Assembly: GCA_964016885.1 (NCBI GenBank)
Contig: OZ024742.1
Span: 99,944,001-100,008,000 of the forward strand
DNA from: Eledone cirrhosa
Taxonomy: Eukaryota
Reading direction: 5' to 3'
Length of the DNA: 64,000 nt
The notes below the pieces were generated by a model, which had not been told where the DNA came from, did no database searches, and saw nothing but the letters and a program-made list of their open reading frames with translations. The position numbers and the translations under genes were made by a program. Each line of letters starts with the position of its first letter. Position 1 is the stretch's first letter. Shown piece after piece: positions 75-52,430 of the stretch.

Positions 75-81
75 TATATAC

Positions 82-136
<55 letters not shown>

Positions 137-175
137 CATACATATATATATACACATACATACATATATATATAC

Positions 176-252
<77 letters not shown>

Positions 253-286
253 CATACATACATATATATATACACATACATACATA

Positions 287-328
<42 letters not shown>

Positions 329-393
329 CATACATATATATATATATATACATACATATATATATATATATACATACATATATATATATATAT

Positions 394-466
<73 letters not shown>

Positions 467-495
467 CATACATATATTTATATACATACATACAT

Positions 496-534
<39 letters not shown>

Positions 535-628
535 CATACATATACATACATACATATATATATATATATACATACATACATATATATATACATATATGTA
601 TATATATATATATACATACATATATATA
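75..628. repeat. (TA)n microsatellite with TACA interruptions
   Basis: Direct reading; explains the YI-repeat ORFs on both strands. Confidence 0.98.
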
Positions 629-806
629 TAGAGAATTTAGTATATCTACTAACATATGCGTACAGATGTACGCTAATGCTAGCAAATACACAGGTTATGT
701 CATAGTACCTATGTGGTTCAATGCAGGAGGATGCAGAACAATAATATAAAAGACGTAAAATAAGAAAATTTTAAAAAATTAAAAAAATTAACTTACTAAA
801 ATTTTC

Positions 807-888
807 ACTCCAACTAATTAGTTTCTGCAATGGGATAAAGACAGTTACGTAATCTAACTGTCGAGAATTCATTGCGTCATCAGGGAGT
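807..888 (-). ncRNA. Type I hammerhead ribozyme (family A, copy 1)
   Basis: Minus strand: actcc CTGATGA cgcaatg..cattgca GAAAC taatta GTT ggagt; 5-bp stem I, palindromic loop III. Confidence 0.7.
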
Positions 889-1852
889 CTATTCTCAGCT
901 AAGTCTCCAGGCAATGCGCGGACACTGGGGACTCATATAAAAATAATAATCATTCGGTAGATGGAACAGCTAGCGGGGATTGGATTCCATGCACTGAAAA
1001 GCTCGCTGTAACTGGTCAAATGGCAGATTCTAAAGAATCAATCACGTGACACTGAGGCTAGTCGGTAGGAGTGGGATGGTAAAATGACAGAAGCCTACTA
1101 TTACACCAATAAATTAGTAGTGGTTTTGGCAGGTTTGCTCGACAAATAAGTAATTTGGAGATAAGTATAGAGAATTTAGTATATCTACTAACATATGCGT
1201 ACAGATGTACGCTAATGCTAGCAAATACACAGGTTATGTCATAGTACCTAGGTGGTTCAATGCAGGAGGATGCAGAACAATAATATAAAAGACGTAAAAT
1301 AAGAAAATTTTAAAAAATTTAAAAAATTAACTTACTTACTAAAATTTTCACTCCAACTAATTAGTTTCTGCAATGGGAGTGAAAATGGAGTGAACATTTT
1401 AGTAAGTAAGTTAATTTTTTTAATTTTTTAAAATTTTCTTATTTTACGTCTTTTATATTATTGTTCTGAATCCTCCTGCATTGAACCACCTAGGTACTAT
1501 GACATAACCTGTGTATTTGCTAGCATTAGCGTATATCTGTACGCATATGTTAGTAGATATACTAAATTCTCTATACTTATCTCCAAATTACTTATTTGTC
1601 GAGCAAACCTGCCAAAACCACTATTAATTTATTGGTGTGATAGTAGGCTTCTGTCATCTTACCATCCCACTCCTACCGACTAGCCTCAGTGTCACGTGAT
1701 TGATTCTTTATAATCTGCCATTTGACCAGTGACAGCGAGCTTTTCAGTGCATGGAATCCAGTCCTCGCTAGCTGTTCCATCTACCGAATGATTATTATTT
1801 TTATATGAGTCCCCAGTGTCCGCGCATTGCCTGGAGACTTAGCTGAGAATAG

Positions 1853-1934
1853 ACTCTCTGATGACGCAATGAATTCTCGACAGTTAGATTACGTAACTGT
1901 CTTTATCCCATTGCAGAAACTAATTAGTTGGAGT
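1853..1934 (+). ncRNA. Type I hammerhead ribozyme (family A, copy 2)
   Basis: actct CTGATGA cgcaatg..[gacagtta/taactgtc hairpin]..cattgca GAAAC taatta GTT ggagt. Confidence 0.7.
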
Positions 1935-2134
1935 GAAAATTTTAGTAAGTTAATTTTTTTAATTTTTTAAAATTTTCTTATTTTACGTCTTTTACATATA
2001 AAATACAATATATAACAGTTTTATAAATAGACATTGACGTACCCTTTTAAAAATTGACCGTTGCTTTTGGAGGCCATCAGGATAGTCATTTGTTTACTTT
2101 AGTAAGTCATAGTGTTAAGAGTAAGTAAAAAGAT

Positions 2135-3696
<1,562 letters not shown>

Positions 3697-4772: not shown

Positions 4773-4775
<3 letters not shown>

Positions 4776-5025
4776 GATGGCGTAGGACAGAACAAAGGAG
4801 AGGCACAAAAACAAAGAAAAGAATGCCCAGTCACTGTAGAGGTCACAAAATGTGTGACGAAAGAACTTTGACAATATATGAACAATCATTTGGTTGTGGA
4901 ACCAACCAACCAACCGGAAATTTATAAATTCCTAAATTTATAAATGTATTATAATAAATTGAAGTGAAATCAACTGGTACGTGTGTTTCTTATTGGCAAC
5001 ATGACCCTCCCAAAGTATAACAATA
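4773..5025 (+). mobile_element. Family C copy (hammerhead-containing, degenerate core CTGTAGA)
   Basis: Homologous to 29472-29725; flanked by (TA)n on both sides. Confidence 0.75.
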
Positions 5026-5034
5026 TATATATAT

Positions 5035-6897
5035 GAAAACAGGGAGAAAGAGACGATTATGAGGAAGAAAAAATTTTTTTTTTCCTTTTTTGTTTCTCTC
5101 GCTCTCTTTTCTGGGTTAGAAAATGATTAAAACGAAATGTTTTACTTTGTGTTAAGGTATTAGTTGATTTATTTATTATTTAACAATGGCATTTATTTAT
5201 CTATTTATATATTTAATTATTGTCTATTACCGGTTTCAGCATTTATATGCATTATCAAATGATAGTGAAAAGTATTAGTGTGGTGTCGCACATGTTAAAC
5301 AGAAGGTGCAGAAAGAATAATGTTATTTACAAACAAGGTTTAAGAAGTGAAAAGAAAAAAAGAAAAAGGAAAAAAAACGTGCATAATGTGGAACGTGAAA
5401 AGTCAATGTGGGAGAAAAAATAATGTTATTTACAAGCACAGTTATTGAAGTTAAGCAGATCAAAATGTATTAATATAGCAAGAGTGCTTAGTTGAACCAT
5501 GGTTCCGTGATGGAGGCAAATGGTGGACTGAGGTTTGATATGATTTCCCTTTTTAGAGAGTTAATATGCAGGGGGAAGCAATTCTTGCTGGGTGATATTT
5601 AATTTATTTAAGAAAAAGGATTGGGTAGGGTGTGAGGGAGGTAACTCTTGTAAATGCTTGATGGTTTGTTGTAGTTTTAGATTGGTCCAATTTTTAGATC
5701 ATTGAGTAGTGGTTGAAATTTATGAATGTGTTTCCTTATTGGTACGTTGGATGAAAGTAGCGTTGTCTATGAATTTGTAAATGGGGAAAATTTTAAAGTT
5801 TGGATGTTGGTTGAGAGAACAATTGGGGATATGTTCACTATATGCAATCTATCTGTATTCCTGTATTTTAATTTGTGATTTATGGACGGTTATACGCTGT
5901 TTTTTGTCTGTCCTATGTAGTGTTCTTGACAACCTGAGCAGGTCAAAACATAGATAAGGTTTTCAGATGCACATGTAAAATTGTGTTTAACTGTGAAACG
6001 CTGTCCTTGTTTTAAATCGAATGTTGAACCTTCTATTAGATTTATGCATATGCCACAGTTGGGCCTTCCGCATTTTGTTACTGTAGGGTTCTTTGTGAGG
6101 ATTAGTTGAATTTTGACTTGTGTGAGGATGTTTTTTATGGATTTGGGTTGTCTTTTTCTCTTTATGATGTTGTGTGTTTGGAGGATATTGTTCATTCTTG
6201 GGTCTCTTTTTAGTAAAGGAATGTTCTGGAGGATGGTGTCGAATGCCTCATTGTTGAGGGGGTTGTGTGTGGAGATGTATGGTAGAGTTTATTGTTGCGG
6301 TTCATTCCTGGGTTTGGGGTGTCTGAGTTCCTGGATGTCTAGTTTTAGGGCACGTTGGAATCCATTGGTGATTAGGGATGGTGGGTAGTTTCTGCTGATA
6401 AGTGTATTTTTTAATTCTTCTAGTCGTGTGTAGCATGTGTATTTATCTGAAACTATTGTGCAGATCCTTCTGGCTGGGTTATAAGGAATTGCCATTTTGG
6501 TGTGTCTAGGGTGGCACGAGTTGAATGGAAGGTATTGTTTGGGGTCTGTGGGTTTGTAGTATATGTCTGTTTCTATTTTGTTCAACACATAGAAAAGAAC
6601 TGGAAGAGATATCTGGACGACTGCTTCATCCTATGGCATGAAAGTATAGATAGACTGTTTGAGTTCAAAACACTAACTTACAATTCACAATGGATTACAG
6701 ATATGAACAACTCCCTTTTCTCGACATCCTCATCAAGAAAACAAGCAACAAAATAGAAACAGACATATACTACAAACCCACAGACTCCAAACAATACCTT
6801 CCATTCAACTCGTGCTACCTTAGACACACCAAAATGGCAATTCCTTATAACCTAGCCAGAAGGATCTGCACAATAGTTTCAGATAAATACACATGCT
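5035..6897 (-). mobile_element. Penelope-like retroelement, Neptune-like, 5'-truncated with an inverted 5' segment
   Basis: Minus strand: RT thumb (TDIYYKPTD..YLPFNSCHP), Cys linker (KCGRPNCGIC), GIY-YIG (LIYVLTC..HYIGQT). Plus strand 6586-6897: RYLDDCF and LPFLDILI RT motifs. Confidence 0.85.
5697..6585 (-). pseudogene. Disrupted PLE RT-thumb / GIY-YIG endonuclease ORF
   Basis: ORF fragments 6289-6588 and 5890-6195, interrupted by stops and frameshifts. Confidence 0.8.
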
Positions 6898-6936
6898 ATA
6901 TATGTATATCTGTGTTCGTTTTTCATTTTTGTTCAG

Positions 6937-7006
<70 letters not shown>

Positions 7007-7116
7007 TTTTCTCCGGATTACTTTTGGAACTACAACTGGAACCGTCGAGCAAACTCTACGTGAGCTGATAATCTACTGTGTGTAATATTTATATTACAAC
7101 ACAACGGAAAAAACTG

Positions 7117-7927: not shown

Positions 7928-8080
7928 CTGAATTTTAAACATTTGACTTATTTATTTTATTTTATTTTACATTACTCCGGAGTAACCAAACGAACCTGCG
8001 CACTTGGTCAAGTGCTCCAATCTGCATACTGAGGTGTTGGTATACAACCAACATATACTAAAAAAAAAAATATATATATA

Positions 8081-8305
8081 TATTGTTATGCTTTGGGAGG
8101 GTCATGTTGCCAATAAGAAACACACGCACCAGTTGCTTTCACTCGAATTTATTATAAATTTAATTTATAATAAATTGGAGTGAAAGGAACTGGTGCGTGT
8201 GTTTCTTATTGGCAAATGACCCTCCCAAAGCATAACAATATCGGTTTCAACACACGTTTTCAGATAAAGAATCTTGCTAAGCAAATCCAGAAACGAAATA
8301 TATAT
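8081..8305. mobile_element. Family C 3' end as a near-perfect fold-back
   Basis: Arms ~8081-8160 and ~8162-8241; the tail matches 29056-29115 in reverse complement. Confidence 0.75.
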
Positions 8306-10155: not shown

Positions 10156-10228
10156 GGTTCCATGGTGTAGTGGTTATCACACCTGTTTAACATGCAGAAG
10201 ACCGTGAGTTCGAAACTCGCTGGAACCT
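10156..10228 (+). tRNA. tRNA-Val(AAC)-like gene or recent pseudogene
   Basis: 73 nt; acceptor GGTTCCA/TGGAACC; A box; anticodon loop TT AAC AT with one stem mismatch; T stem GTGAG/CTCGC with TTCGAAA; oligo-T terminator follows. Confidence 0.7.
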
Positions 10229-10628: not shown

Positions 10629-10681
<53 letters not shown>

Positions 10682-10934
10682 GAAGTGGTTACACAACAGT
10701 TAGTTCACCATACCGAGAACAATTGTTTCACCTTAGCAGATCCTGAGCTCGTAATGGACATGGTTATACGAAAAAGGAAGAATAACCGTACGTGTCGCGC
10801 ATGCGCAGAAACGATCACTTCACACGGGCAATACTAAAATGCGTGCGAGAGGTGTAAGGGAAATAACTGCGAAAGTTCGAAAAGTTTCTAGTTGATAAGA
10901 AAATTAGGATGTTGTTGTAATTCAATCCGGAGCT

Positions 10935-12889
10935 GTGTAGTTATGTAAGAGGTGTTTCCAGACGTGTGGACAAGGTGTGAAAATTCATTTCTCGTGTTTA
11001 GGCAATCACTATTGCGTAGTCACTTTAAAATATTTATTCGTTCATCAATACGCATTTCCCCTTGCGTATGGCTTGGACTTGGTGATGGCTTTCCATTGAA
11101 TGGAGTAGTCTATACTTAAGTCCTTGAGAGACGATACGTGGCTCGCGAGTTTCGTTGATGAACGTCTGTTCGAGTAGCTAAAGGTCGACTGGTGGTTCAG
11201 GAGCGTTCCTTAAATCGGCCCTCCACCATACGAACATAGGATTTGACCTCCTGTGGTTGATTTCGTCGGTTGGAAGTGACCATAGCTTCATAAAGTAGAG
11301 CGGGTGTGTTGCATTGCTGTTGAAGGGGACAAACTTCGGGCTTTTGGCAAGAGCACCCTGGTGGGGTGTTGCTCTTAGGGCTGTTGGTGATGTGGGCCTT
11401 CATGTTCTTAGCGCAGGAGTATCCTAGTTTTACTTTGTGTCGGTTAAAGATGGAGCGGTATTTATGACCTATGGGAAAGTGTCTATTTAAGAGGGCTAGA
11501 AACCTTTTGCCTACATTGGTTTTAACGTTGAGTGAGAAGTGAGGAGAGAAACAGATAGTTTGTCTATTGTTACGCTTTCTTTTCTTATTGCCGTTGTTGA
11601 TAGTGAGAGAGTAAGTGAGAGGTTGCGAGAAGCCGTCGTTAGCTAACGCCGTGTTATAGTAGGGTGCCACCCTGTCAAAGATAGCTTTTTTAGAGGATAT
11701 TCTAGTATTGATATTATTTACTAAGTTTCTAAAAACAGTGGGGGGGGGTGGCATGTGTCCTTGTGAATGTAATTGAGTTTTTCGTTTAGCTTATGGAAGG
11801 GTCTGTAGGTGTGTGTGCGAAGGTCTAAATTAATGTCTAAGAAATCTACGTTAGAGAGGTTGGTAGCTACTGATATCCTAGGTCCTAACTCATTGAAGGT
11901 AGAAGCTAAGTCTTTTTTAAACCAGTCGAGGTCGTGACCACTTTTATGGCTCGATAAGATCAGTCCATCATCGCGGTATATTCCCGTGTGGAAGTCCGGG
12001 CATCTAACACGTAATATGTCTAAAATAAATAGGCCAACCAAGTTGCATACGTCAGCACTGTCAAACGATCCCATGGAGATGTCGAATATTTCTGAAGTTG
12101 TTGACTTCTTTGCCCAGGCTACTCCATCGTTGAAGAGGAGGGTTTTCCGGCAGTGAGCGATGAATTCCTCGTCTAAATCATCAACGGTAGTGTAAGTGGT
12201 AGCAATATTCAACACTTTGTTTAACAGGGTATCTGAGATCGATGGGTAAAAATCAACAATGTCAAACTGTGTGAAGTTCGCTTTTTGGGATTTTAAGGAG
12301 TTAAACCACTTAATTACGGAGTTCTCCCACTGGGACAGGTTGGACTTGGTCCTAATGGTCTTAATTATGTTTCTAAGTATGGCCTTACTGACTAGTCCCA
12401 TATCTGTGCGTGCTGGGTTTATTAGTCTACATGTGGGGTTAGAAGTAAAGTCTACCTTGTGATCTTTCAGGGTGAGGAACGCCTCCTGCTTAGCTAGATA
12501 TTGTAGCTTCTTATCTACCTTAAGGGCAGCGGCAAGTTCTTTGGCTTCCGTATTAATGTCGTGGTAGGCCATAGGGTTAGCTTTCTTATATTTTGAAGTA
12601 ATAGCGTTATGGGCCAGGTGGCGGAATATCGTATTGTCGACTTTGTAAATATTATTAGTTTTGTCGGAAAGAACGAAAGTGTTATTAGAAGACCTAAATT
12701 TCTTAATATCATTTCTAAGTTTAGTTTGAAAGGTGTTAGGGTGTTTGCGAAAGGAAATGTTAGCGACTAAGTCAAGAAGGTCCGCCTCGAAAGGATCAAG
12801 TTCAGTTACCTTATGAGGGCAGGCTCTCGATTTCAGGTTGAAGGTGTTATGGGTGTCTGTAATTTTGCCATCAAAAGCTAGGGTTCGCC
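10935..12889 (-). pseudogene. Frameshifted PLE RT + GIY-YIG ORF
   Basis: ORF pieces 11721-12572 and 11197-11754 plus adjacent frames. Confidence 0.85.
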
Positions 12890-13256
12890 ATCTTAAGCGT
12901 CTGACGACATCTTCCGCTTTTTGTAGGAGAAGCTTTGGGTAAACATGGTTGGAGGGAGTGGTAATGTTCCCTCGGGGAGTAATCCAGTTCGTATAAATCC
13001 AGACTGACGTTGATCAGACACAAAATTGTGTAGGAGACGAGGATATAGATAGCGCTCACAGGGTAGGAAGCCAAACTCGCACGTGGTGAAGAATCTACTA
13101 AAAGCCAAACTTCTACGTAGTGAAGAGAATCTACTGACCGTTGCTGGAGACGTATATAGTAGTAGAACACTGGAAGGTAATATCCGTAGTGGTAGAGCAC
13201 TCAGTCCATGGGACGAGTTAGGTAGAAGTGGTTACACAACAGTTAGTTCACCATAC

Positions 13257-13294
13257 CGAGAACAATTGTTTCGCCTTAGCGGATCCTCAGCTCG
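13257..13294 (-). ncRNA. Minimal hammerhead ribozyme in the PLE pLTR
   Basis: Minus strand: cgag CTGAGGA tccgctaaggc GAAAC aatt GTT ctcg. The sister copy at 10714-10751 has a mutated core (CTCAGGA). Confidence 0.7.
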
Positions 13295-14329
13295 TAATGG
13301 ATATGGTTATACGGAACAGGAAGGACAACCGTACGAACGCGCATGCGCAGAAACGATCACTTCTCACAGGCAATACTAAAATGCGTGCGAGAGGTGTAAG
13401 AGAGATAACTCCGAAAGTCCGAAAAGTTTCTAGTTAATATGAAAATTAGGATGTTGTAATTCAATCGGGAGCTTTGTAGTTATGTCACAGGTGTTTCCAG
13501 ACGCGTGGACAACGTGTGAAGAATTCATTTCTCGTGTTTAGGCAACCACTATTGCGTAATCTCTTTAGAATATTTATTCGTTCATCAATACATAGTCCAC
13601 ACGACGAGTTGCCCCTTGCGTATGGCTTGGACTTAGTGATGGCTTTCCATTGAATGGAGTAGTCTATACTTGAGTCCTTGAGGGACCATACGTGGCTCGC
13701 GAGTTTCGTGGATGAACGTCTGTCGGGTACCTAAGGGTCGACTGGTGGTTCAGGAATCGTTCATTACATCGGCCCTCCGCCATACCCACATAGGATTTGA
13801 CCTCCTGTGGTAGATTTGGTCGGTTGGAAGTGACCACAGCCAGCTTCATAAACTACAGTGGGTGTGTTGCATTGCTGTTGAAGGGGACAAGCTTCGGGCT
13901 TACGGCAAGAGCACCCTGGTGTGGTGTGGCTCTTAGGGCTGTTGGTGATGTGGGCCTTCATTTTCTTGGCGCAAGAGTATCCTAGTTTTACTTTGTGTCT
14001 GTTAAAGAATGAGCAGTATTTATGACCTCGGCCTCTTAAATAGACACTTTCCCATAGGTCATAAATACTGCTCCATCTTTAACCGACACAAAGTAAAACT
14101 AGGATACTCCTGCGAAGGAACCTGCAGCCGTAGAATCAACCAGGATCCATACAGTGATCATGTCTCGAGTTACCTGCCGGCGAAACAATTGTAACATGCA
14201 ATAAACTGAGACCAGATGCATCACTGATTTTTCGTTTTTTTATACTATTCACACACTGCTCTGTATAAATATTGAGTTCTAATTTTGGCATACCGCCAAT
14301 GGAAGCACCATAGCTACCATTATACACAC

Positions 14330-29012: not shown

Positions 29013-29055
<43 letters not shown>

Positions 29056-29059
<4 letters not shown>

Positions 29060-29720
29060 CGTTTCTGAATTTGTTTAGCAAGATTCTTTATCTGAAATCG
29101 TGTGTTGAAACCGATATTGTTATACTTTGGGAGGCTCATGTTGCCAATAAGAAACACATGCACCAGTTGCTTTCACTTCAATTTATTATATATTTACAAA
29201 TTTATAAATTTCTGGTTGGTTGGTTGGTTCCACAACCAAATAGTTGTTTATATATAGTCATAGTCCTTTCGCTACACACTCTGTGACCTCTTCAGTGACT
29301 GGGGATTCCTTTCTTTGTTTCTGTGCCTCTCCTTTGTTCTGTCCTACGCCATTTTGTTTCTGTGCGTGTGTTGTGTGCTCAGTTTGCGCATGCGCCACAT
29401 CCGGGTGTCTGTGTGTGTTTATGTTCATTTATCTATGCGCAAACTGAGCACACAACACACACACAGAAACAAAATGGCGTAGGACAGAACAAAGGAGAGG
29501 CACAGAAACAAAGAAAGGAATCCCCAGTCACTGAAGAGGTCACAGAGTGTGTGACGAAAGGACTATGACTATATATAAACAACTATCTGGTTGTGGAACC
29601 AACCAACCAACCAGAAATTTATAAATTTATAAATTTGTAAATTTGTAAATATATAATAAATTGAAGTGAAAGCAACTGGTGCGTGTGTTTCTTATTGGCA
29701 GCATGACCCTCCCAAAGTAT

Positions 29721-29725
<5 letters not shown>
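29056..29725. mobile_element. Family C large fold-back
   Basis: Arms ~29115-29392 and ~29435-29725, flanked by (TA)n on both sides. Confidence 0.85.
29526..29570 (+). ncRNA. Minimal hammerhead ribozyme (family C)
   Basis: agtca CTGAAGA ggtcac agagtgt gtgac GAAA ggac TA tgact; mirror copy on the minus strand at ~29256-29300. Confidence 0.7.
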
Positions 29726-29761
<36 letters not shown>

Positions 29762-31914: not shown

Positions 31915-34528
<2,614 letters not shown>

Positions 34529-35040
34529 ACATTATGAAGAGAGAAGAAACATTTAGATATAATTAGTAATAAAATGTATCATACCTAAACTGTTCCTAAA
34601 TTCCTCGACTACGTAGTTTCGTGGCATAAACAAAAACAATATATCAAAGATATAGAGTCCTTGCGAGGTCTGCCAACTTGAGACTAGTAAAATGAGGTAT
34701 CCTCTTGATAAGTTGGCAGACCTCGCAAGGACTCTATATCTTTGATATATTGTTTTTGTTTATGCCACGAAACTACGTAGTCGAGGAATTTAGGAACAGT
34801 TTAGGTATGATACATTTTATTACTAATTATATCTAAATGTTTCTTCTCTCTTCATAATGTATTTTTAACTCTGATACTGGTTCAGTCTGGTTCAAACTGA
34901 ATTGGTCTGTCCCGGTCATTCATTGAGCAACATCGGTGAAGTTGGCACCCTTAACTCACAGTCAGGTGCGGATGCATTAATGTATATATGTGTGTGTCCG
35001 CATGTATCTGTGTGTTTTTAAATATATATATATATATATG

Positions 35041-35089
<49 letters not shown>

Positions 35090-37805
35090 TTAGAAACACA
35101 CAGATACATGCGGACACACACATATATACATGAATGCATCCGCACCCAACTGTGAGTTAAGGGTGCCAACTTCACCGATGTTTCTCGACCGTTATATCGC
35201 GTGACTATCTCCCCCTCCGCCTTTTGAGATTCTTTCTCACGTCGTGTAGACGCGTTCTTGAGACTAGTAAAATGAGGTATCCTCTTGATAAGTTGGCAGA
35301 CCTCGCAGGGACTCTATATCTTTGATATATTGTTTTTGTTTATGCCACGAAACTACGTAGTCGAGGAATTTAGGAGCAGTTTAGGTATGATACATTTTAT
35401 TACTAATTATATCTAAATGTTTCTTCTCTCTTCATAATGTATTTTTAACTCTGATACTGGTTCAGTCTGGTTCAAACTGAATTGGTCTGTCCCAGTCATT
35501 CATTGAGCAACATCGGTGAAGTTGGCACCCTTAACTCACAGTTGGGTGCGGATGCATTCATGTATATATGTGTGTGTCCGCATGTATCTGTGTGTTTCTA
35601 AATATATTAATAACTCCCTCTGGTCGAGCAATCTTTGAAGTGTGGGGACAACTGGAAAGCTTCCATTACTCATACTTCTCGCCTTCTTCACTACCTCTTC
35701 TACGGCCTCGATATGAATACCCCCTCCGCCTCCGTGGTATTTTCTTCGTGGTTATAAGAGGCTTAGCTCTGTTTCTCGACCGTTATATCGCGTGACTATC
35801 TCCCCCTCCGCCTTTTGAGATTCTTTCTCACGTCGTGTAGACGCGTTCTTGAGACTAGTAAAATGAGGTATCCTCTTGATAAGTTGGCAGACCTCGCAGG
35901 GACTCTATATCTTTGATATATTGTTTTTGTTTATGCCACGAAACTACGTAGTCGAGGAATTTAGGAGCAGTTTAGGTATGATACATTTTATTACTAATTA
36001 TATCTAAATGTTTCTTCTCTCTTCATAATGTATTTTTAACTCTGATACTGGTTCAGTCTGGTTCAAACTGAATTGGTCTGTCCCAGTCATTCATTGAGCA
36101 ACATCGGTGAAGTTGGCACCCTTAACTCACAGTTGGGTGCGGATGCATTCATGTATATATGTGTGTGTCCGCATGTATCTGTGTGTTTCTAAATATATTA
36201 ATAACTCCCTCTGGTCGAGCAATCTTTGTAGTGTGGGGACAACTGGAAAGCTTCCATTACTCATACTTCTCGCCTTCTTCACTACCTCTTCTACGACCTC
36301 GATATGAATACCCCCTCCGCCTCCGTGGTATTTTCTTCGTGGTTATAAGAGGCTTAGCTCTGTTTCTCGACCGTTATATCGCGTGACTATCTCCCCCTCC
36401 GCCTTTTGAGATTCTTTCTCACGTCGTGTAGACGCGTTCTTGAGACTAGTAAAATGAGGTATCCTCTTGATAAGTTGGCAGACCTCGCAGGGACTCTATA
36501 TCTTTGATATATTGTTTTTGTTTATGCCACGAAACTACGTAGTCGAGGAATTTAGGAGCAGTTTAGGTATGATACATTTTATTACTAATTATATCTAAAT
36601 GTTTCTTCTCTCTTCATAATGTATTTTTAACTCTGATACTGGTTCAGTCTGGTTCAAACTGAATTGGTCTGTCCCAGTCATTCATTGAGCAACATCGGTG
36701 AAGTTGGCACCCTTAACTCACAGTTGGGTGCGGATGCATTCATGTATATATGTGTGTGTCCGCATGTATCTGTGTGTTTCTAAATATATTAATAACTCCC
36801 TCTGGTCGAGCAATCTTTGAAGTGTGGGGACAACTGGAAAGCTTCCATTACTCATACTTCTCGCCTTCTTCACTACCTCTTCTACGGCCTCGATATGAAT
36901 ACCCCCTCCGCCTCCGTGGTATTTTCTTCGTGGTTATAAGAGGCTTAGCTCTGTTTCTCGACCGTTATATCGCGTGACTATCTCCCCCTCCGCCTTTTGA
37001 GATTCTTTCTCACGTCGTGTAGACGCGTTCTTGAGACTAGTAAAATGAGGTATCCTCTTGATAAGTTGGCAGACCTCGCAGGCACTCTATATCTTTGATA
37101 TATTGTTTTTGTTTATGCCACGAAACTACGTAGTCGAGGAATTTAGGAGCAGTTTAGGTATGATACATTTTATTACTAATTATATCTAAATGTTTCTTCT
37201 CTCTTCATAATGTATTTTTAACTCTGATACTGGTTCAGTCTGGTTCAAACTGAATTGGTCTGTCCCAGTCATTCATTGAGCAACATCGGTGAAGTTGGCA
37301 CCCTTAACTCACAGTTGGGTGCGGATGCATTCATGTATATATGTGTGTGTCCGCATGTATCTGTGTGTTTCTAAATATATTAATAACTCCCTCTGGTCGA
37401 GCAATCTTTGTAGTGTGGGGACAACTGGAAAGCTTCCATTACTCATACTTCTCGCCTTCTTCACTACCTCTTCTACGGCCTCGATATGAATACCCCCTTC
37501 CGCCTCCGTGGTATTTTCTTCGTGGTTATAAGAGGCTTAGCTCTGTTTCTCGACCGTTATATCGCGTGACTATCTCCCCCTCCACCTTTTGAGATTCTTT
37601 CTCACGTCGTGTAGACGCGTTCTTGAGACTAGTAAAATGAGGTATCCTCTTGATAAGTTGGCAGACCTCGCAGGGACTCTATATCTTTGATATATTGTTT
37701 TTGTTTATGCCACGAAACTACGTAGTCGAGGAATTTAGGAGCAGTTTAGGTATGATACATTTTATTACTAATTATATCTAAATGTTTCTTCTCTCTTCAT
37801 AATGT
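34529..37805 (+). mobile_element. Family G: 591-bp tandem hammerhead repeat (retrozyme-like) with inverted 5' segments
   Basis: Ribozyme starts at 35281, 35872, 36463, 37054 and 37646, plus a partial unit at 34701. Inverted pieces at 34529-34678 and ~35087-35180. Embedded in a TA array. Confidence 0.9.
35280..35367 (+). ncRNA. Type I hammerhead ribozyme with U3-A8 core variant (one per monomer)
   Basis: tcctc TTGATAA gttggca..tgccac GAAAC tacgta GTC gagga. Confidence 0.75.
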
Positions 37806-38858
<1,053 letters not shown>

Positions 38859-40891: not shown

Positions 40892-41139
40892 GTCTCCCGC
40901 TTTCTCAATCACTATATCTCTTTCACTTTCACTCCCTCTTTTTCTATCTAACTATCTATCTATTTATTTATCTGTCTATCTATACCTGGGATGGACACAC
41001 GCGTAAAACTCTTGCTGGGTAAGTTGTACCTAAATTTCCATAGAAATTCCAAACTGTAAACTTTCATTTTTGTATCATTTTATAGAGGGACTGCCAGGTC
41101 AAATTTTGATCTGGTCAGTCTCTCAAATTATTCTACGCC

Positions 41140-44100
41140 TTTAGGCGAAATTGTGTTGAGAAAAAAATGTTTTATCTTTCGAAAAAATTCCTCCTTTGAT
41201 AAAAATGGCTGAAGCATCTTCACCAACATTCAATGAAAGAAAAGGGAAGCTAAACTCACAGCTTCCCCCTGCCACTGTCACAGCAACAGATGACCGACCT
41301 GCTGACCGACAACTTGATGCAGCCACAACTACACAAGAAACCGAAAATAACAACAACAACGACAACAACAGCAACAATAAAGACAACAAAAACAACAACA
41401 CCAACAACAATGATAACAACAACACCACAAACTACAACAGCAACGCAAACAAGGAAAAGGTCTCCTTCGCCCAGACGGCAAGGAAAACCCTCGACTATCT
41501 GCCAGTAGATATAACCAAAGCGAAGGAGTTACTGGCAGATGCCAAAAAATACATAGTGTACGGGGAAAATGGATAATTTTCGATCGCGTCATACTGGATG
41601 ACCAAACTTGTATCAACATTACCGTTGAGGGTAGGCGGCCCTCGTGTTACCTCTGTGGAGCCAGAGGTCACCTGACGGCTGTCTGTCCTCAACTTAAAAA
41701 GAAAACCCCAATCCTGCCTACACCACCAACAACTGCACAACCAGTACAATCACCACAACCACCACTACAAAAACAACAACCACAGCTCAAACCAAAACAA
41801 AACACTGCCCCCCCCCCCCCCACCCCACCCCACCCACACACACACTAAAAAAAACAAGACAATTTCCGAAACACCCGCACCGCAAACACAACCCGAAAAT
41901 CTACCCCTCCCCTCCAACGCGGAAGATGACCCTCGTTCGTCGTCAGACGAGGAGGAGCACTTCCACACAATCAAAAGAAAAAAAAAGAAAACACACCTCA
42001 GACACACAAATGAAAACAACCCCTCCCCAAAACATAACACAGACACCAACACAAAAGAGCACACAACAACAGCAAACAAAAAACACCACACAAAAACAAA
42101 AACATGCATACGCATACATAAACACAAGAAATAAAAAACTGCTAAACATTATATACAACAACAATTTAGTAAAAACCCAAGGGCCTAACTTCACCCAGGA
42201 AGGGGATTTCCCCCACCTCAAAATGATTAAGGACCCAGAGGCCACATATAAAACACTAAAAAACAACCTTAAATTGGACGTGCTCGCCCCCCCCCCCCCC
42301 CCTGCGTCGGGCCCATTAACCGCGTCCTCCTAAAAAAATTCCCCACCCCCTCCCCAAACACCCGCACAACTCCAAACACCCTAACCACACAACACACTGA
42401 TGCCCCTACACTTCCACAAACCACCACCCCACCCTCATGGAAATTGTGCAGCCCGATACCCGGGACGCACAGAGGTAAGTGCCTTTTCTCTTCACCACCA
42501 ACATGGCTATGCTAAGAGTAGGCTGTCTAAATGCGCGTCGCCTGGGCTCAACTTGGAAGCAAGCAATGCTTCTAAATGACCCCAGGTAACAACATATAGA
42601 TGTGATGGTTATTTGCGAGGCCCGGATCAGCAACGTGCGATAGCTGGCCCCCACCTTTGATGACTTTGAGATGCACGCATCTTTCTGTCAGCCCGGTGGT
42701 GGGGGTGGGGTTGTCGTTCTGCTGCAAAAACATCTGGGTCTGGCAACACAGACGGTACATTTGGACCCGGAGGGTCGACTAGAGGGTCGACCTTGGTAGT
42801 GGTGAAGGCGGAGCGTTTAGGCTGGTAGCCGTCTACGGCCGTTTCGGGTCAACGCAGCCGGAATTCTTCCATCGTCTGGAGACTTTTCTAGGGACGTCCC
42901 GCTCCTTGCTATTAGTGGGGGACTGGAATGGTATCCTAGATGCACGTTGGGACTACGTAGGGGCCTGTCCCGATAGAGAGGGGTGTAACAGCCTCAAAGG
43001 GTTAATCGGTCAATTTGACCTGGCCGATAGATATCGACTAGATTTTCCGACTGTGCCAACCTGGACTCGGGCAAACCGCAGCGGATCATCTAGGTCGTAC
43101 CTAGATAGGTTCTTAGTTAGAAATAAGGATAAGGACTTTTAAGTTGTCCAAAAATGCTCATGGCTGGCTATTCGGACCACAAGTTAGTGATCTGCCTGGT
43201 AAACCTTGACAGAACGCATAGACAGGGACCCGGTTACTGGAAGCTCAACTTGTCCTTACCGGCAAGTAAGGCTTACAGGGACCGGATTAGCACTTTAGTT
43301 AAGGAGCGGTTGACGGGCGCCATCGTCAACAGCAGGTAGTGGGGATCTCTCAAAAGAAAGATTAGAGTAGTCTCTATAGAATTTAGTAAGGAGTTAGACT
43401 CAAATAGAAATAGGAAGGAAAGGAAGTTGGTCGATAGTGTAGAAGAGGCAATTAGAAGCGGCGACGTGGCCAGACTGCTAGCGTCGAGAACGGCCCTGGG
43501 CCAGTTCTTCGACGCGAAACACGAAGGCTGCATCGTCCGAAGCAAAATACGTGTTCTGGGAAACGAGAGGACCAAAGCTGTTAGCTGGGCCCGCGTGACA
43601 GTAGCCAAAAGAAGGAGTAGATCCACTATCCGGTCTTTGCGAGACCAGGATGGACGGGTGATCCTTGAGCCTAAGCAGATGTGCGAGGCTTTTCAAAAGC
43701 ACTTTGCCAGATTGTTCGGAAGGGGCGGCGAACCGGTTCGGGAAGTGCACTTCGGTCCATACCTCGACGGCCTGCCGCGTATCTCGGACAGGGAGGAGAA
43801 GTCTTGCGAGGAGCCGATTTCAACCGCTGAGATAGAGGACGTGCTGAGCCAATGCGGCAAACGCAAATCCCCGGGTCTCGATGGTCTTCCATACGAACTA
43901 TATCTAGCTATGCCGGACTTGTTCCCCTATCTCCTCGAGGCGGTCTACTCCAACTGGCAACAGAACGGGAGAATACCCTGTGCTGTGACCAAGGGCGTAG
44001 TCACGCTAGTGAGGACGGACGAGAACAAGGGGGACGATATAAATAATTTCAGGCCCATAACTCTGCTAAATACAGAGTTACAGATTTGGGCCAAGGTGCT

Positions 44101-45360
44101 GGCAAAGAGGTTGGCGTTTGTCGTGGGAAACCTGGTGGGAGATGCGCAGACATGTGCTATCCCGCCCAGGTCCATCCACGACAACCTCCACCTCATGCGA
44201 TACATCATAGAGTGGGTTGGGAACGAACCCGGCTTTGGTGGGGCTCTGATCAACTTGGATCAATCTAAGGCGTTCGATAGGGTCGATCATGGTTACCTGG
44301 ATGCGGTGCTAGCGGCGGCAGGCTTCGGACCCGTTTTCAGGGGCTGGATCAATGCCATGCACAGCAGCCACATCTGCTCTAGGGTCAAGGTGAACGGTTA
44401 CTTCTCGGAGCCATTCGAAATCGCGCGGTCCATCCGACAGGGGTGCCGTCTCTCATCCCTTCTGTATGTAATGAGTCTAGAGCCACTGCTGCGGAAGTTG
44501 GAGTTGTTGCAGGGCATCCCGTTGGAACCGGGATTGCGGAAAGCGGTGTCGGCCTACGCCGATGACGTAACAGTAATGGTGTCGAGACGGCCTCGGAAAT
44601 CGGGGCGATCGGCATCTTACTGGGGGAGTACGAAAGGATTACAGGGGCTAATCTGAACCGGGACAAGTCGATCGGTCTGCAACTCGGCACGTGGAGGGGA
44701 AAATCGTTGCCCTCCGATGACGTCGTCGGGCGCTGGACGGAGGGCCCGGTGAAGTTGCTCGGAGTCTGGTTCGGACCAGACCTCCAGGTGGAGAAGAACT
44801 GGGGTGAGGTAACGAACAGGGTGTGTGCACTGACCCAGAAGTGGGCCGAGTGCAAACTGTCCCTGAGAGGTCGGGTGGAGGTGGTGAACACTTATATAGC
44901 GTCCGTCATCTAATACCGCCTGACCGTCGTGCCTTGCCCAAGGGAAACGCTCGCTAAAATGGAGCGCGCACTCTTCCAATTCCTTTGGAATAGCGGGCTC
45001 CTATGGTGAGGAGATCCATCTGCTGTCAACACCCTTCGAAAGGAGGGCTGGGGATGCCGTGGCTGATGATGCGTAAACACGCATTAAGGCTACGGCACCT
45101 CCAGGTATTCCTCACCTGTCAACCGTTGTGGGCCACGTTTGTGAGGCGAGCATTTCCCAGACTCGTCTCGCTCACCGAGCTGCAATCCTGGGTCAAGCAA
45201 AGACCGAGAAAACTGGGCGCCTGGCACACCGAGTGTTTTCAGGCGCTCACGGTTCTCTGGCAGGCGGACCCGGCTGTCAGTGGAGAATCCACCTCGTCAT
45301 TCTATAGAGGGCTGGTGGTTAGCAGGTGCGACGACGCCATCGGAGAACCCTAGGCATGGA
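41140..45360 (+). mobile_element. L1/Tx1-type LINE copy 1 (ORF1 + APE + RT, 3' end missing, disrupted)
   Basis: Low-complexity ORF1 from ~41205. APE motifs GCLNAR, GDWN, YLDRF, SDH. RT motifs FRPITLLN, DQSKAFDRVDH, RQGC, YADD. Confidence 0.9.
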
Positions 45361-48038
45361 GGATAAAGTAGAAGAGGCAATTAGAAGTGGCAACGTAGCC
45401 AGCGTGCTAGCAACGAGAACGGCCTTGGACCAGTTCTTCGACGCAAAGCATGAAAGCTGCGTTGTCAGAAGCAAAATACGTGCTCTGGGAAATGAGGGAG
45501 CCAAAGCTGTTAGCTGGGCCCGAGTGACGGAGGCAAAAAGTGGCAACAAGTCCACGATTCGGTCTTTGAAGGACCAAAACGGACGCGTGAACGTGAGCCG
45601 AAGCAGATGTGTGCGGCCTTTCAGCGGCACTTTGCTCAACTGTTCGAGCAGGGCGGCGCGCCGGGATGGGCTATGGATTTCGGTCCATACCTCGACGGCC
45701 TACCGCGACTCTCGGAGAGCGAGGCAAAGTTCTGCGAAAAGCCGATTTCAGCCGCTGAGATAGGGGACACGCTGAGCCAATGCGAATCTCCAGGTCTCGA
45801 CGGTCTACCCTACGAATTTTACGTAGCAATGCCGGACTTATTCTCCGGTCTCCTGGAAGCGGTCTTCTGCAACTGGCAACAAAACGGGAGAATTCCCAGT
45901 TCTGTGACCGGGTCACACTAATCAGGTAGGACGAGGATAAGGGGGATGACATAGCCACCTTCCGGCCCATAACTCTGCTAAACACAGAGTTACAGATTTT
46001 GGCCAAGGTGTTGGCAAAGAGGCTGGCGCTTGTCGTCGAGAACCTGGTGGGAGAAGCGCAGACATGCGCGATCCCGACCAGGTCCATACACGACAACCTC
46101 CACCTCATGCAATACATCAGAGAGAGGATAGGGTGTAAACCCTGCTTCGGTGGGGCCCTGATCAACTTGGATCAGTCTAAGGCTTTCGATAGGGTTGACC
46201 ATCGTTTCCTGGATGCGGTGTTCGATGCGGCAGGCTTCGGACTCGTGTTCAGGGGCTGGATTGCTGCAATGCACAACAGCAACATCTGCTCAAGGGTCAA
46301 GGTGAACGGCTACCTCTCGGAGCCTTTCCATATCACGCGATCCATTCGACAGGGATGCCCTCTCTCCTCCCTTCTGTATGTACTGACTCTCGAGCCACTA
46401 CTGCGGAAGTTGGAGCTATTACAGGGCATCCCTCTGGAACCGGGACTACAGAAAGCGGCGTCGGCCTACGCCGACGACGTCTCAGTAATGGTGTCGAGCG
46501 CCTCGCAAATCGAGGAAGTCGGCATCTTACTGAAGGAATACGATAGTTTCACAGGAGCGAAGCTGAACCGGGACAAGTCGGATCGTGGAGAAGCAAACCG
46601 ATGCCTTCCGATGGCGTCGTCGGACGCGGGACGGAAGGACCGGTAAAGCTGCTCCGGTCTGGTTTGATCCGGACCTCCTGGTGGAGAAGAACTGGAACGA
46701 GGTGACGGCCAAGGTGTTTGCACTCACCCAGAAGTGGGCCGAGTGCAAACTATCCTTGAAAGGTCGAGCGGAGGTGGCGAACACTTTTATAGCGTCCGCC
46801 ATCTACTACCGCTTGACTTGTCCAGCCAAAACGCTCACCAAAATAGAGCGCACGCTCTTCCAATTCCTTTGGAAGAGACGGGCTCCTATGGTGAGAAGAT
46901 CCATCTGCTGCCAACACCCTTCTAACGGAGCGCTGGGAATGACGTGGCTGACGATGCGCAAACACGCGCTCGGGTTGCGGCATCTCTACGTATTCCTCAT
47001 CGGACAACCGTTCGTGAGGCGTGCCTTCCCACGACTCGTCTCGCTGACCGAGCTGCAGTCCTGGGTCAAGCAAAGACCGAGGAAAATGGGCGACTGGCAC
47101 ATCGAATGTGCTCAGGCGCTCACAGCCCTCTGGCAGGCGGACCTGACGATCAGTGGAGACTCCACTTCGTCATTCTATAGAGGGTTGATCCGCAGCAAGT
47201 GCGACGACGCGCTCGGTGAAACTCTAGGCGTAGAGGAAGATGAAATGGCCAGTGTTCGGTAGGACCTTCCGCCCGGGACCGATATGACAACTTCCAAAAG
47301 TCCCTGGCATGGCAGTACTACCGAGGAGCTCTACCAGTTCGAGACAAGCTCTACAGATATGGGCGCCCGGGCAGGGACCCTGCAAAAAAGATCTGTCCGA
47401 GTTGCGTGCGAGACGAAGAAACCGTCGCGCACGCATTCATACACTGCCCGGGGGTCACCGACCTGTGGGGCTATGTAGAACGACTATTGTCGCGGTGGGA
47501 CCAATCCGGTTGACCACCGAGTCCTTTGTCATGATCAAACTGCCACCCTCCTTCAAAAACGAAGGAGAGGCGGTTTTCCTTTGTGTGATAACTATGGCGA
47601 AAGAGGTTGTATGTTGGACAAGGTTGAAAGGGCTGAGGTCAGACACCTTTCTCTCCGACCAACAACCGATTCTTTTTTTCAAATACCACTTTGGAAGAAG
47701 AATCAGGATGGAGAGAGAGGTGCTCTACCCCAGCAAGTTTTATGAAAGGTGGGTGAAAGTGGCGAGAATGGCCCGAGTGAATGGGCCTTCTCTCTATATC
47801 AGCCTGTAGGTTGAGGAAAAGGAGGAGGAGAGGAAGGGAGTACAAACTCTTCGTACTCCTGGAGCTGAGGGCTGCACATTTTTTCAGGGGTATGTGTTAC
47901 CTATATGAACTGTCTCCCCCTATTGGGGAAAATCGACTAATTTTTTTAATTGCATTTGTGATAATATTTTACACGTTTTTATTGTATGTAAACTTCCCTC
48001 TTTGTATTTGTCCCCTTCTTTTGTGCTAATAAATAAAC
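45361..48038 (+). mobile_element. L1/Tx1-type LINE copy 2 (5'-truncated, RT to 3' UTR, disrupted)
   Basis: Repeats the RT region of copy 1 from the position equivalent to ~43432; RQGCPLS, YADD; C-terminus ends at 47809; aataaa tail. Confidence 0.9.
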
Positions 48039-50577: not shown

Positions 50578-50621
<44 letters not shown>

Positions 50622-50625
50622 CATA

Positions 50626-50893
50626 TAGTGGTAGAACACTGGAAGGTAGGTAATATACGTAGTGGTAGAGCGCTCAGTCCATGGAACTAGTTAGGTAGAA
50701 GTGGTTACACAACAGTTAGTTCACCATATCGAGAACAATTGTTTCACCTTAGCGGATCCTCAGCTCGTAATGGACATGGTTATACGGAACAGGAAGCATC
50801 CCGTTCCGTATAACCATGTCCATTACGAGCTGAGGATCCGCTAAGGTGAAACAATTGTTCTCGGTATGGTGAACTAACTGTTGTGTAACCACT
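50626..50893. mobile_element. Non-autonomous fold-back derivative of the Nematis-like pLTR with two hammerheads
   Basis: Matches 13156-13320. Arms ~50700-50790 and 50803-50893. Plus-strand hammerhead 50826-50863: cgag CTGAGGA tccgctaaggt GAAAC aatt GTT ctcg. Confidence 0.85.
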
Positions 50894-51038
50894 GCTATAT
50901 ATATATATTGAAAGTCCCTGGATTTCGCAAAATACATAATATATTTTATTGGAGAAGGTAAGAAAATTTTCCGCAAAAATTTGATTGCACTATTTTATTT
51001 ACACTTCTGTATTTTTTGAAAATTAAATGATAGCATTC

Positions 51039-51075
<37 letters not shown>

Positions 51076-51173
51076 GTATATATATATGTAGGTGGGGCCC
51101 CCTTCATCTGGTAACCAATATTTTTAGACCTTATCCGCCAATTATTTAGACCTTATCCGCCATAATTATATAA

Positions 51174-51360
51174 TAGCGGTGGATTGGCAGTATCGGTAGA
51201 GGGTCGGACGCCATGCTTTCCAGAATAGTTACGTCCCTTTACGATCTGAGTTCAAATCCCGCCAAGGTTGACTTTGCCTTTCATCCTTACGGGGTCGATA
51301 AAATAAAGTACCAGTAATGCACTGGGTAATTGCTGGCCTTGTGCCTAAAGTAGAAACAAT
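51174..51360 (+). mobile_element. tRNA-derived SINE with TSD aattatataat
   Basis: Same family as 24601; duplicated flank at 51164-51174 and 51358-51368. Confidence 0.85.
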
Positions 51361-51937
51361 TATATAATGCCAATTATTTTAAGTTTGAATCTAACTGACA
51401 TTCAAAAACATATATATAGGAATAAGGTAAGCCCAAATCATAGTAGAGAAAGAGGAGGGGGGGGGTGAGGTGTAGCAAAAAAGGAATCATGGATTGCAGG
51501 TTAAAATGTAGTCTAGATAGATGGGAAACAAAACGAGGATGTAGTTTATTTTATGGAACACCCAAATGATTTAGAAGTCGTCTTAAGTATGAACAATAAC
51601 ATTAAGAAAGACATGAACGACACCACAACACTTTGTTTTGAAAATTTTGAAAGTAAGTTTATAAGTATGAATTTTCATAGTTGTCTCTGTGGCCTAGCGG
51701 TAGGTACTAGAGATGGTGGAGATCCTGGCCTTGGGTTCGATCTTTGTCAAGAGATACATGTAACCTTTTTCAGTTTTTCTTTTACATCTCATAGAAAAAT
51801 AAATGAAAAGGCTTACCGGGAACCCTACTCCAGAGCAGGATCGTACTTCAGACCAGGATCACCACCGTCTATGATTCCTCCAACTAGGCCACTGAGACAG
51901 CTACAAAAGTATAATGAAAATTAGAAACCTCTGAATC

Positions 51938-52075
51938 CGAGCTGAAGATCGGCTAAGGTGAAACAATTGTTCTCGGTATGGTGAATTAACTGTTGTGTAA
52001 CCACTTCTACCTAACTCGTCCCTTGGACGAGTGCTCTACCACTACGGATATTACCTTCCATTGTTCCACCACTAT
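51938..52075 (+). mobile_element. Solo pLTR fragment of the Nematis-like element beginning at the hammerhead
   Basis: cgag CTGAAGA tcggctaaggt GAAAC aatt GTT ctcg, running to ccactata(TA)n. Confidence 0.8.
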
Positions 52076-52095
52076 ATATATATATATATATATAT

Positions 52096-52430
52096 ATATT
52101 TAAAAACACACAGATACATGCGGACACACACATATATACATGAATGCATCCGCACCCAACTGTGAGTTAAGGGTGCCAACTTCACCGATGTTGCTCAATG
52201 AATGACTGGGACAGACCAATTCAGTTTGAACCAGACTGAACCAGTATCAGAGTTAAAAATACATTATGAAGAGAGAAGAAACATTTAGATATAATTAGTA
52301 ATAAAATGTATCATACCTAAACTGTTCCTAAATTCCTCGACTACGTAGTTTCGTGGCATAAACAAAAACAATATATCAAAGATATAGAGTCCTTGCGAGG
52401 TCTGCCGACTTATCAAGAGGATACCTCATA
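52096..52430 (-). mobile_element. Dispersed partial copy of family G (591-bp unit)
   Basis: Reverse complement of ~35272-35603; hammerhead at 52335-52420 keeps TTGATAA; TA on both sides. Confidence 0.9.

What the first reader, a model, noticed from the sequence alone, without database searches (positions are those of the whole stretch)
1376..1995. Inverted arm of family A starts, twice, exactly at the predicted ribozyme cleavage site
Seen: the predicted cut is GUU/GGAGU. At the inversion junction the sense arm begins ggagtgaaaat (1376-1386), restarts ggagtgaac (1387), runs one full monomer to the next site (1930) and continues 65 nt further. Inference: the reverse-transcribed RNA had a ribozyme-generated 5' end, which is fossil evidence of in vivo cleavage of a multimeric or circular template. 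There is 1-2 nt of microhomology at the junction, so coincidence is possible.
Basis: partly seen in the sequence, partly recalled or inferred. Interest (0 to 1): 0.75.

Follow-up and report, generated by a model that had tools for sequence, protein, structure and literature searches.

The report
Ribozyme cut site fossilised in insertions
This is one of thousands of copies of a small non-coding jumping repeat with a predicted self-cutting RNA motif; across the genome its copies begin at the predicted cut 3 to 9 times more often than at control positions, which likely records cut RNA being copied into DNA in a minority of insertions, while about 98% of passes read straight through the site.

Summary
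Observation confirmed: the sense arm starts at the predicted hammerhead cut (1376), restarts (1387), runs one 543-nt monomer and ends about 68 nt later. Junction microhomology is 3 nt, not 1-2.

The element is a non-LTR retrozyme with a Penelope-type footprint: (TA)n targets, head-to-head arms, 3' ends fixed at +72 or +186/197, one of each in 93 of 113 pairs and never the same.

Matched genome-wide patterns give 121 of 5,783 anchors (2.1%) starting at the cut, against 0.21% and 0.25% at two controls and about 0.6% at a third (1.6% before read-through variants were removed by eye). 91 of 100 inspected hits are true starts. Partner arms start near the cut too, and restarts recur at 5 other loci. 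So the peak is real but small (3-9x), and about 98% of passes read through.

Best reading: mostly uncut or circular templates, plus a minority with ribozyme-made 5' ends. Reverse-transcriptase stalling at the ribozyme helices is not excluded, and cleavage is untested.

The parts
75..630 (.). (TA)n microsatellite, left target flank
627..1378 (-). Antisense arm of family A: monomer position 520 through one full monomer to +186/189 (long-tail 3' end, into (TA)n)
807..888 (-). Complete type I hammerhead motif in the antisense arm; predicted cut between 812 and 811, read through
1376..1378 (.). 3-nt microhomology shared by both arms at the head-to-head junction
1376..1386 (+). Short restart piece equal to monomer +1..+11, beginning at the predicted cut
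   Evidence: similar pieces in L211, L215, L246 and by eye L242, L280
1387..1929 (+). One full 543-nt monomer from cut site to cut site; 37% GC in the antisense-arm copy; longest stop-free frame 83 codons
1853..1934 (+). Type I hammerhead motif: stem I 1853-1857/1930-1934; core 1858-1864 and 1916-1919; C.A mismatch 1865/1915; stem II 1866-1871/1909-1914 with inner hairpin 1879-1901; 3-bp palindromic helix III 1919-1928; predicted cut 1929/1930, read through
   Evidence: 94% of cells paired; two-sided changes in 5 of 22 pairs
1930..1997 (+). Start of the next monomer, ending at the family's short-tail 3' end (+72)
1998..2136 (-). Fragment of a second hammerhead-like repeat (family B) that forms the right flank, followed by (TA)n 2137-2894

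Best explanation
The locus is a head-to-head insertion of a 543-nt hammerhead-motif repeat (a non-LTR retrozyme), likely pasted in by a Penelope-type reverse transcriptase, and its sense arm likely ends where it does because the RNA template had been cut by its ribozyme there. Shown: the two arms, their fixed 3' ends, the motif with covarying stems, and a 3-9x genome-wide excess of copy starts at -2..+1. Inferred: both ends of a break in (TA)n DNA prime copying, one at +72 and one at +186. Most templates are uncut multimers or circles, so copying passes the site about 98% of the time. In a minority the polymerase runs off a ribozyme-made 5' end, often adds a base, sometimes re-anneals a few bases downstream and runs off again (the double start here), and the two cDNAs are joined by 1-4 nt of microhomology.
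For: Peak: 121 of 5,783 anchors at the cut against 10 of 4,726 at +100 and 11 of 4,488 at +308 (9.9x and 8.5x, p<1e-18), and 22-24 of 3,733 at +460 after removing read-through variants by eye (about 3x, p<1e-6). Of the 100 listed hits, 91 are true starts (32 at +1, 37 at -1, 22 at -2) and 9 read through. Neighbouring windows are not raised in 273 aligned arms: -11..-4 3 vs 6.2 expected, +2..+6 1 vs 4.0. Microhomology opportunity at the site is average. Where one arm starts at the cut, the partner starts at -1..+4 in 16 of 66 loci and at -1..+50 in 42 of 66, against 6 and 38 of 175 background arms, as a hard template end predicts. Perfect fold-backs at +1 in L223 and L296. Restarts recur: 3 of 91 by rule, 2 more by eye. 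Footprint: 83 of 100 and 10 of 13 head-to-head pairs have one short and one long tail, none two alike, matching the two initiation sites and the tail of Penelope-like elements (PMC11167929, PMC8557442). Precedent for junctions recording a ribozyme cut: R2 (PMC3774820).
Against: No cleavage assay and no RNA data. The third control gives only 1.16x (p=0.38) on raw counts, 59 of 3,733; the 3x needs my by-eye removal of 35 rows. In aligned samples the exact-site excess is weak: 3 vs 1.2 in 196 contig-1 arms (p=0.11), and 6 vs 2.4 in 273 arms (p=0.035), one of the six being this locus. 59 of 91 starts carry T or TT upstream, which fits an added base but equally fits a stop at -1/-2 on uncut RNA. 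Near-palindromic junctions also occur away from the cut (9 of 83 pairs within 5 nt; 12 of 50 vs 9 of 83, p=0.052). An invariant C.A mismatch at the base of stem II may weaken the ribozyme (inference). In PMC11167929, ribozyme mutants inserted normally in vitro and no RNA reads ended at the cut. No autonomous partner was identified.
Confidence: 0.62

Rival explanations
1. The excess comes from the reverse transcriptase stalling at the 3' edge of the ribozyme fold on uncut RNA: helix III, a 10-nt palindrome at -11..-2 that could pair between molecules, and stem I at +1..+5. No cut is needed.
For: 59 of 91 starts lie at -1/-2, the edge of helix III. The larger shoulder at +7..+15 (25 vs 5.4 expected) lies just 3' of stem I. 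Uncut RNA was the dominant substrate in vitro (PMC11167929).
Against: Other predicted helices show no clear excess: -21..-12, the 3' edge of stem II, 9 vs 7.6; +181..200, just 3' of the long hairpin, 8 vs 5.9. 32 starts begin exactly at +1. Both arms often stop at the same place.
Confidence: 0.22
2. Random truncation plus microhomology joining; this locus and the peak are chance or sequence bias.
For: 3-nt microhomology at this junction, and partner arms starting at 520-525 recur in L222, L228, L280. End density correlates weakly with microhomology opportunity (rho 0.15-0.18), and the +7..+9 palindrome has 3-5x average opportunity. Only three control positions were measured.
Against: Opportunity at -2..+1 is average, yet counts are 3-9x those of controls. 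Starts there follow many different flanks (73 inverted, 12 (TA)n, 6 other of 91).
Confidence: 0.1
3. Linear, fully cut monomers are the main templates, and tandem arms arise by end-to-end polymerase jumps at the cut, not from circles or multimers.
For: 60 of 90 cut-site starters read no further cut site. 9 of 100 hits are read-throughs, most with a small deletion ending at the cut. Restarts show that jumps occur there.
Against: Read-through is precise in about 98% of 5,783 anchors by the two marker bases. Arms pass up to 6-7 sites. Some of the small deletions can be slippage.
Confidence: 0.06

Closest known systems
Metazoan non-LTR retrozymes (Cervera and de la Pena 2020, PMC7229834, parts 2-4 of 6 read; Li, Clavereau and Pollet, bioRxiv 10.64898/2026.07.22.740005, parts 1-3 of 5 read)
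   Same: Non-coding tandem monomers, one type I hammerhead each, under 50% GC, thousands of copies, short palindromic helix III as in axolotl.
   Different: 543 nt is above the 150-450 bp of the first paper and within the 51-972 bp of the second. The parts I read do not map copy ends or describe head-to-head arms. Expression and circles were not tested here.
Penelope-like elements and the PAc element of the anole (Craig et al. 2021, PMC8557442, passages read; Frangieh et al. 2024, PMC11167929, parts 1-2 of 4 read)
   Same: 5' truncation, partial tandems, inverted 5' copy, tail at one end only, microsatellite or AT-rich targets, two internal start sites downstream of the hammerhead cut.
   Different: No ORF. 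The tail is about 115 nt rather than 30-40. Frangieh et al. saw no need for cleavage in vitro and no RNA reads at the cut, whereas here genomic copies show a small excess of starts at the cut.
R2 retrotransposon with HDV-like ribozyme (Eickbush lab 2013, PMC3774820, passages read)
   Same: Genomic 5' junctions record the ribozyme cut, with added bases and microhomology after the polymerase runs off the RNA.
   Different: In R2 the cut defines the 5' end of full-length copies. Here it accounts for about 2% of passes, the ribozyme is a hammerhead and the element is non-autonomous.

Membership tests
Type I hammerhead ribozyme | CUGANGA and GAAA core, three helices, NUH triplet, open helix I | tested here: met
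   Core near-invariant in 20 copies; 94.1% of cells paired; two-sided changes in stem II and the inner hairpin. Shuffle control 0/500 for pairing and score, but 108/500 for the number of covarying pairs, and the rows are related. The core definition is recalled. Rfam gathering search gave no hammerhead match.
Type I hammerhead ribozyme | Canonical pair closing stem II next to the core | tested here: not met
   C.A mismatch in 20 of 20 rows. PMC7229834 reports a U.U mismatch there in an axolotl motif that cleaves weakly as a monomer and better as a dimer.
Type I hammerhead ribozyme | Self-cleavage at the predicted site | not testable with these tools
   Only indirect support from copy starts.
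Non-LTR retrozyme | Tandem monomers with one hammerhead each, at least two in a row | tested here: met
   102 of 244 arms exceed one monomer; arms with up to 6-7 sites; long array on C5.
Non-LTR retrozyme | No coding capacity | tested here: met
   Longest stop-free frame 83 codons on the circularised monomer.
Non-LTR retrozyme | Expressed as linear and circular RNA | not testable with these tools
   No RNA run was listed.
Penelope-mobilised element | Inverted 5'-truncated arm, tail at one end only, microsatellite target | tested here: met
   93 of 113 pairs short+long, 20 with an irregular end, 0 same-tail; 3' flanks (TA)n or (CT)n.
Penelope-mobilised element | Homology to the terminal repeat of an autonomous partner | tested here: inconclusive
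   No monomer match elsewhere in the window. tblastn of the window's Penelope-like frames hit a few held loci, which I did not link to family A arms. No genome-wide partner search was run.
Autonomous Penelope-like element | RT plus GIY-YIG ORF | tested here: not met
   No ORF in the monomer.

The most novel reading that the evidence does not exclude
Genomic insertions of a hammerhead retrozyme preserve a countable record of ribozyme cleavage in the germ line: about 2% of passes end exactly at the cut, and up to about 7% if the +7..+15 shoulder is trimmed run-off. Both arms of an insertion stop at the same cut end, so one Penelope-type complex copies ribozyme-cut RNA from two fixed starts, with run-off, base addition and re-annealing.
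Probability: 0.5. Interest if true: 0.7.

Novelty: new member of a known kind. Interest (0 to 1): 0.52.

Why it matters
The role of hammerheads in Penelope-like elements is described as unclear (PMC8557442), and the one in vitro study I read found cleavage dispensable and saw no RNA ends at the cut (PMC11167929). A genome-wide excess of copy starts at the cut would be evidence that cut RNA is a real but minor template in vivo, and that most templates are uncut or re-ligated. The counting method can be applied to any retrozyme or Penelope family. My six answered paper searches listed no paper whose title or the parts I read map retrozyme or Penelope copy starts against the hammerhead cut. Subscription papers such as Cervera and de la Pena 2014 are outside the library, and I read no supplements.

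Tried and rejected
Full-monomer DNA search: its 30 loci are biased towards starts near +1 because the query began there. Loci reached only this way were left out of all rates.
Rfam at gathering threshold: only a tRNA.
RNA runs: no RNA holder listed.
Contigs of four runs laid on 631-2136 gave no cover of 1345-1395, a stretch the tool skipped as repeat, so no verdict on the junction.
The +7..+15 shoulder (25 vs 5.4) was not counted as clean evidence because of a palindromic A/T stretch.
Control +460 is contaminated by subfamily substitutions (35 of 59 rows by eye, 13 from one array). Control +100 has below-average microhomology opportunity. Hence the range 3-9x.
A general correlation of partner starts holds only within 5-10 nt (9 of 83 pairs, p=0.0008 at 5 nt), not at 30-50 nt.
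Single-sequence folds give an alternative fold, not the active hammerhead.
Pfam and PDB sequence searches found nothing for the window's Penelope-like frames; the protein atlas was unavailable.
No pattern count was made for the positions just upstream of the cut, so peak sharpness rests on the 273-arm sample. 21 of the 121 cut-site hits were not listed and not inspected.

Full report
Observation. The window shows a head-to-head inverted insertion from 627 to 1997. Numbering the monomer from the predicted cut (+1), the minus-strand arm runs from position 520 through one monomer to +186/189 and ends in (TA)n. The plus-strand arm has +1..+11 (1376-1386), then a full 543-nt monomer (1387-1929), then the next monomer to the +72 end (1997). 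The arms are 98% identical over 612 nt. The microhomology is 3 nt, so the first start lies at +1..+4, and the second start is -1 or +1.

The ribozyme motif. It is a type I hammerhead at 1853-1934. In 20 copies, drawn from 19 of the 22 subfamily clusters, the core and the 10-nt palindromic helix III are nearly invariant. 94.1% of pair cells are standard pairs, with two-sided changes in 2 pairs of stem II and 3 of the inner hairpin. The rows are related, and the count of covarying pairs does not beat shuffles (108/500). A C.A mismatch closes stem II in all rows. Rfam did not detect the motif. Activity is untested.

The family. The genome is 3.0 Gb; exact 20-mers give 3,733 to 5,783 hits. In loci reached by short anchors, 3' ends cluster at +72/73 and +186..197 and run into (TA)n or (CT)n. 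Of 100 head-to-head pairs, 83 have one short and one long tail, 17 have at least one irregular end and none has two alike. 13 further pairs give 10, 3 and 0. 102 of 244 arms exceed one monomer. This is the Penelope footprint as described in PMC8557442 (passages) and PMC11167929 (parts 1-2), on a non-coding tandem unit of the retrozyme kind (PMC7229834, parts 2-4; bioRxiv 10.64898/2026.07.22.740005, parts 1-3). Earlier notes of this scan report the same footprint for other families in this and other genomes. I had measured it before reading them.

The test, genome-wide. I counted exact 20-nt anchors whose upstream bases -3 and -10 both differ from the monomer, which captures starts at three positions. 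Cut site: 121 of 5,783, 2.09%. Control +100: 10 of 4,726, 0.21%. Control +308: 11 of 4,488, 0.25%. Ratios 9.9 and 8.5. Control +460: 59 of 3,733 raw, not different from the cut site (1.16x, p=0.38). By eye, 35 of those rows are read-through substitution variants, 22 are ends or internal deletions and 2 are ambiguous, giving 0.6% and a ratio near 3 (computed with 106 true starts). All 100 listed cut-site hits were read in their loci: 91 true starts (32 at +1, 37 at -1, 22 at -2; 73 with an inverted partner, 12 after (TA)n, 6 other) and 9 read-throughs with a small indel or variant. 21 hits were not listed. Arms of one locus count separately, so a few loci count twice.

The test, aligned sample. 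In 273 arms the mean truncation rate is 0.28% per base. Observed against expected: -21..-12 9/7.6; -11..-4 3/6.2; -2..+1 6/2.4 (p=0.035, including this locus); +2..+6 1/4.0; +7..+15 25/5.4; +16..+30 13/9.7. The contig-1 subset alone gives 3/1.2 at -1/+1 (p=0.11). In 244 arms, 282 cut sites were read through, 7 arms ended at -3..+1 and 20 at +2..+15. The shoulder overlaps a palindromic A/T stretch with 3-5x microhomology opportunity, whereas the cut site has average opportunity.

Signs of a hard template end. When one arm starts at the cut, its partner starts at -1..+4 in 16 of 66 loci and at -1..+50 in 42 of 66; background 6 and 38 of 175. Near-palindromic junctions also occur elsewhere (9 of 83 pairs), so part of this is general. 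The restart seen here recurs: +2/+3..+11 pieces in L211, L215 and L246, and longer pieces from +1 in L242 and L280 by eye. Of 90 starters, 60 read no further cut site, 25 one and 5 two. This locus belongs to the one-site class.

Mechanism. Shown: architecture, fixed 3' ends, tail asymmetry, the excess of starts, partner correlation, restarts. Inferred: a Penelope-type enzyme primes both ends of a break at +72 and +186. Most templates are uncut multimers or circles. A minority have a ribozyme-made 5' end, from which the enzyme runs off, often adds an A, sometimes re-anneals at the U run at +11, and the cDNAs join by microhomology. R2 gives a precedent for junctions that record a ribozyme cut (PMC3774820, passages). 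A circle already paired with cDNA could hardly refold and cut, so this arm more likely came from a partly cut multimer or a jump between cut monomers (inference). The main rival is stalling at helix III or stem I on uncut RNA. It explains the -1/-2 starts and the shoulder, but other helices show no clear excess.

Verdict. Observation confirmed; interpretation partly supported. The element is a new member of a known kind. The added value is a quantified, modest peak of copy starts at the hammerhead cut, which bears on the open question of what these ribozymes do in retrotransposition. Confidence in the cleavage reading 0.62; interest 0.52. The host looks like a large, microsatellite-rich animal genome; I did not test its identity.

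Noticed in passing
G000 C5 about 84,645,800-84,726,600 (L271-L275; two 20-kb gaps not fetched): Tandem array of an older family A subfamily, about 81 kb if continuous, unit about 525 nt; 13 sampled units 92-100% alike; ends at the canonical long-tail 3' end in (TA)n. Possible source of multimeric RNA or a later expansion.
   Followed up: partly
window 1998-2136 and 2895-3367: Family B: a second hammerhead-like repeat (core motifs at 3082 minus and 3271 plus) as an inverted pair between (TA)n tracts; a fragment abuts the 3' end of family A.
   Followed up: partly
window 10680-14114, minus strand: Penelope-like element by recalled motifs (RT-like 430-aa frame 11721-13013, following frame 11197-11790), with direct terminal repeats, an inverted 5' piece, and a minimal hammerhead near 13290 that also has a palindromic helix III and a GUU triplet; terminal-repeat copies near 50600-52100. 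Pfam and PDB gave no match.
   Followed up: partly
window 5890-7085: Fragments resembling a Penelope-like RT and endonuclease in an inverted arrangement (recalled motifs, no Pfam hit).
   Followed up: no
window 34527-37807: 591-nt tandem array with an inverted end between long (TA)n tracts; related copy near 52070-52430.
   Followed up: no
window 4774-5034, 8070-8305, 29050-29738: Another small inverted-pair repeat, with hammerhead-like cores at 29295 (minus) and 29531 (plus).
   Followed up: no
window about 41000-47800: Degenerate LINE-like frames with endonuclease- and RT-like stretches (recalled).
   Followed up: no
window 54181-55182: Mariner-like transposase frame of 333 aa (recalled).
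   Followed up: no
window 10156-10228: tRNA-like match, 55 bits.
   Followed up: no
L230, L235, L259, L262, L267: Read-through copies with small deletions ending exactly at the predicted cut; could be ligation of trimmed RNA, polymerase jumps or slippage.
   Followed up: partly
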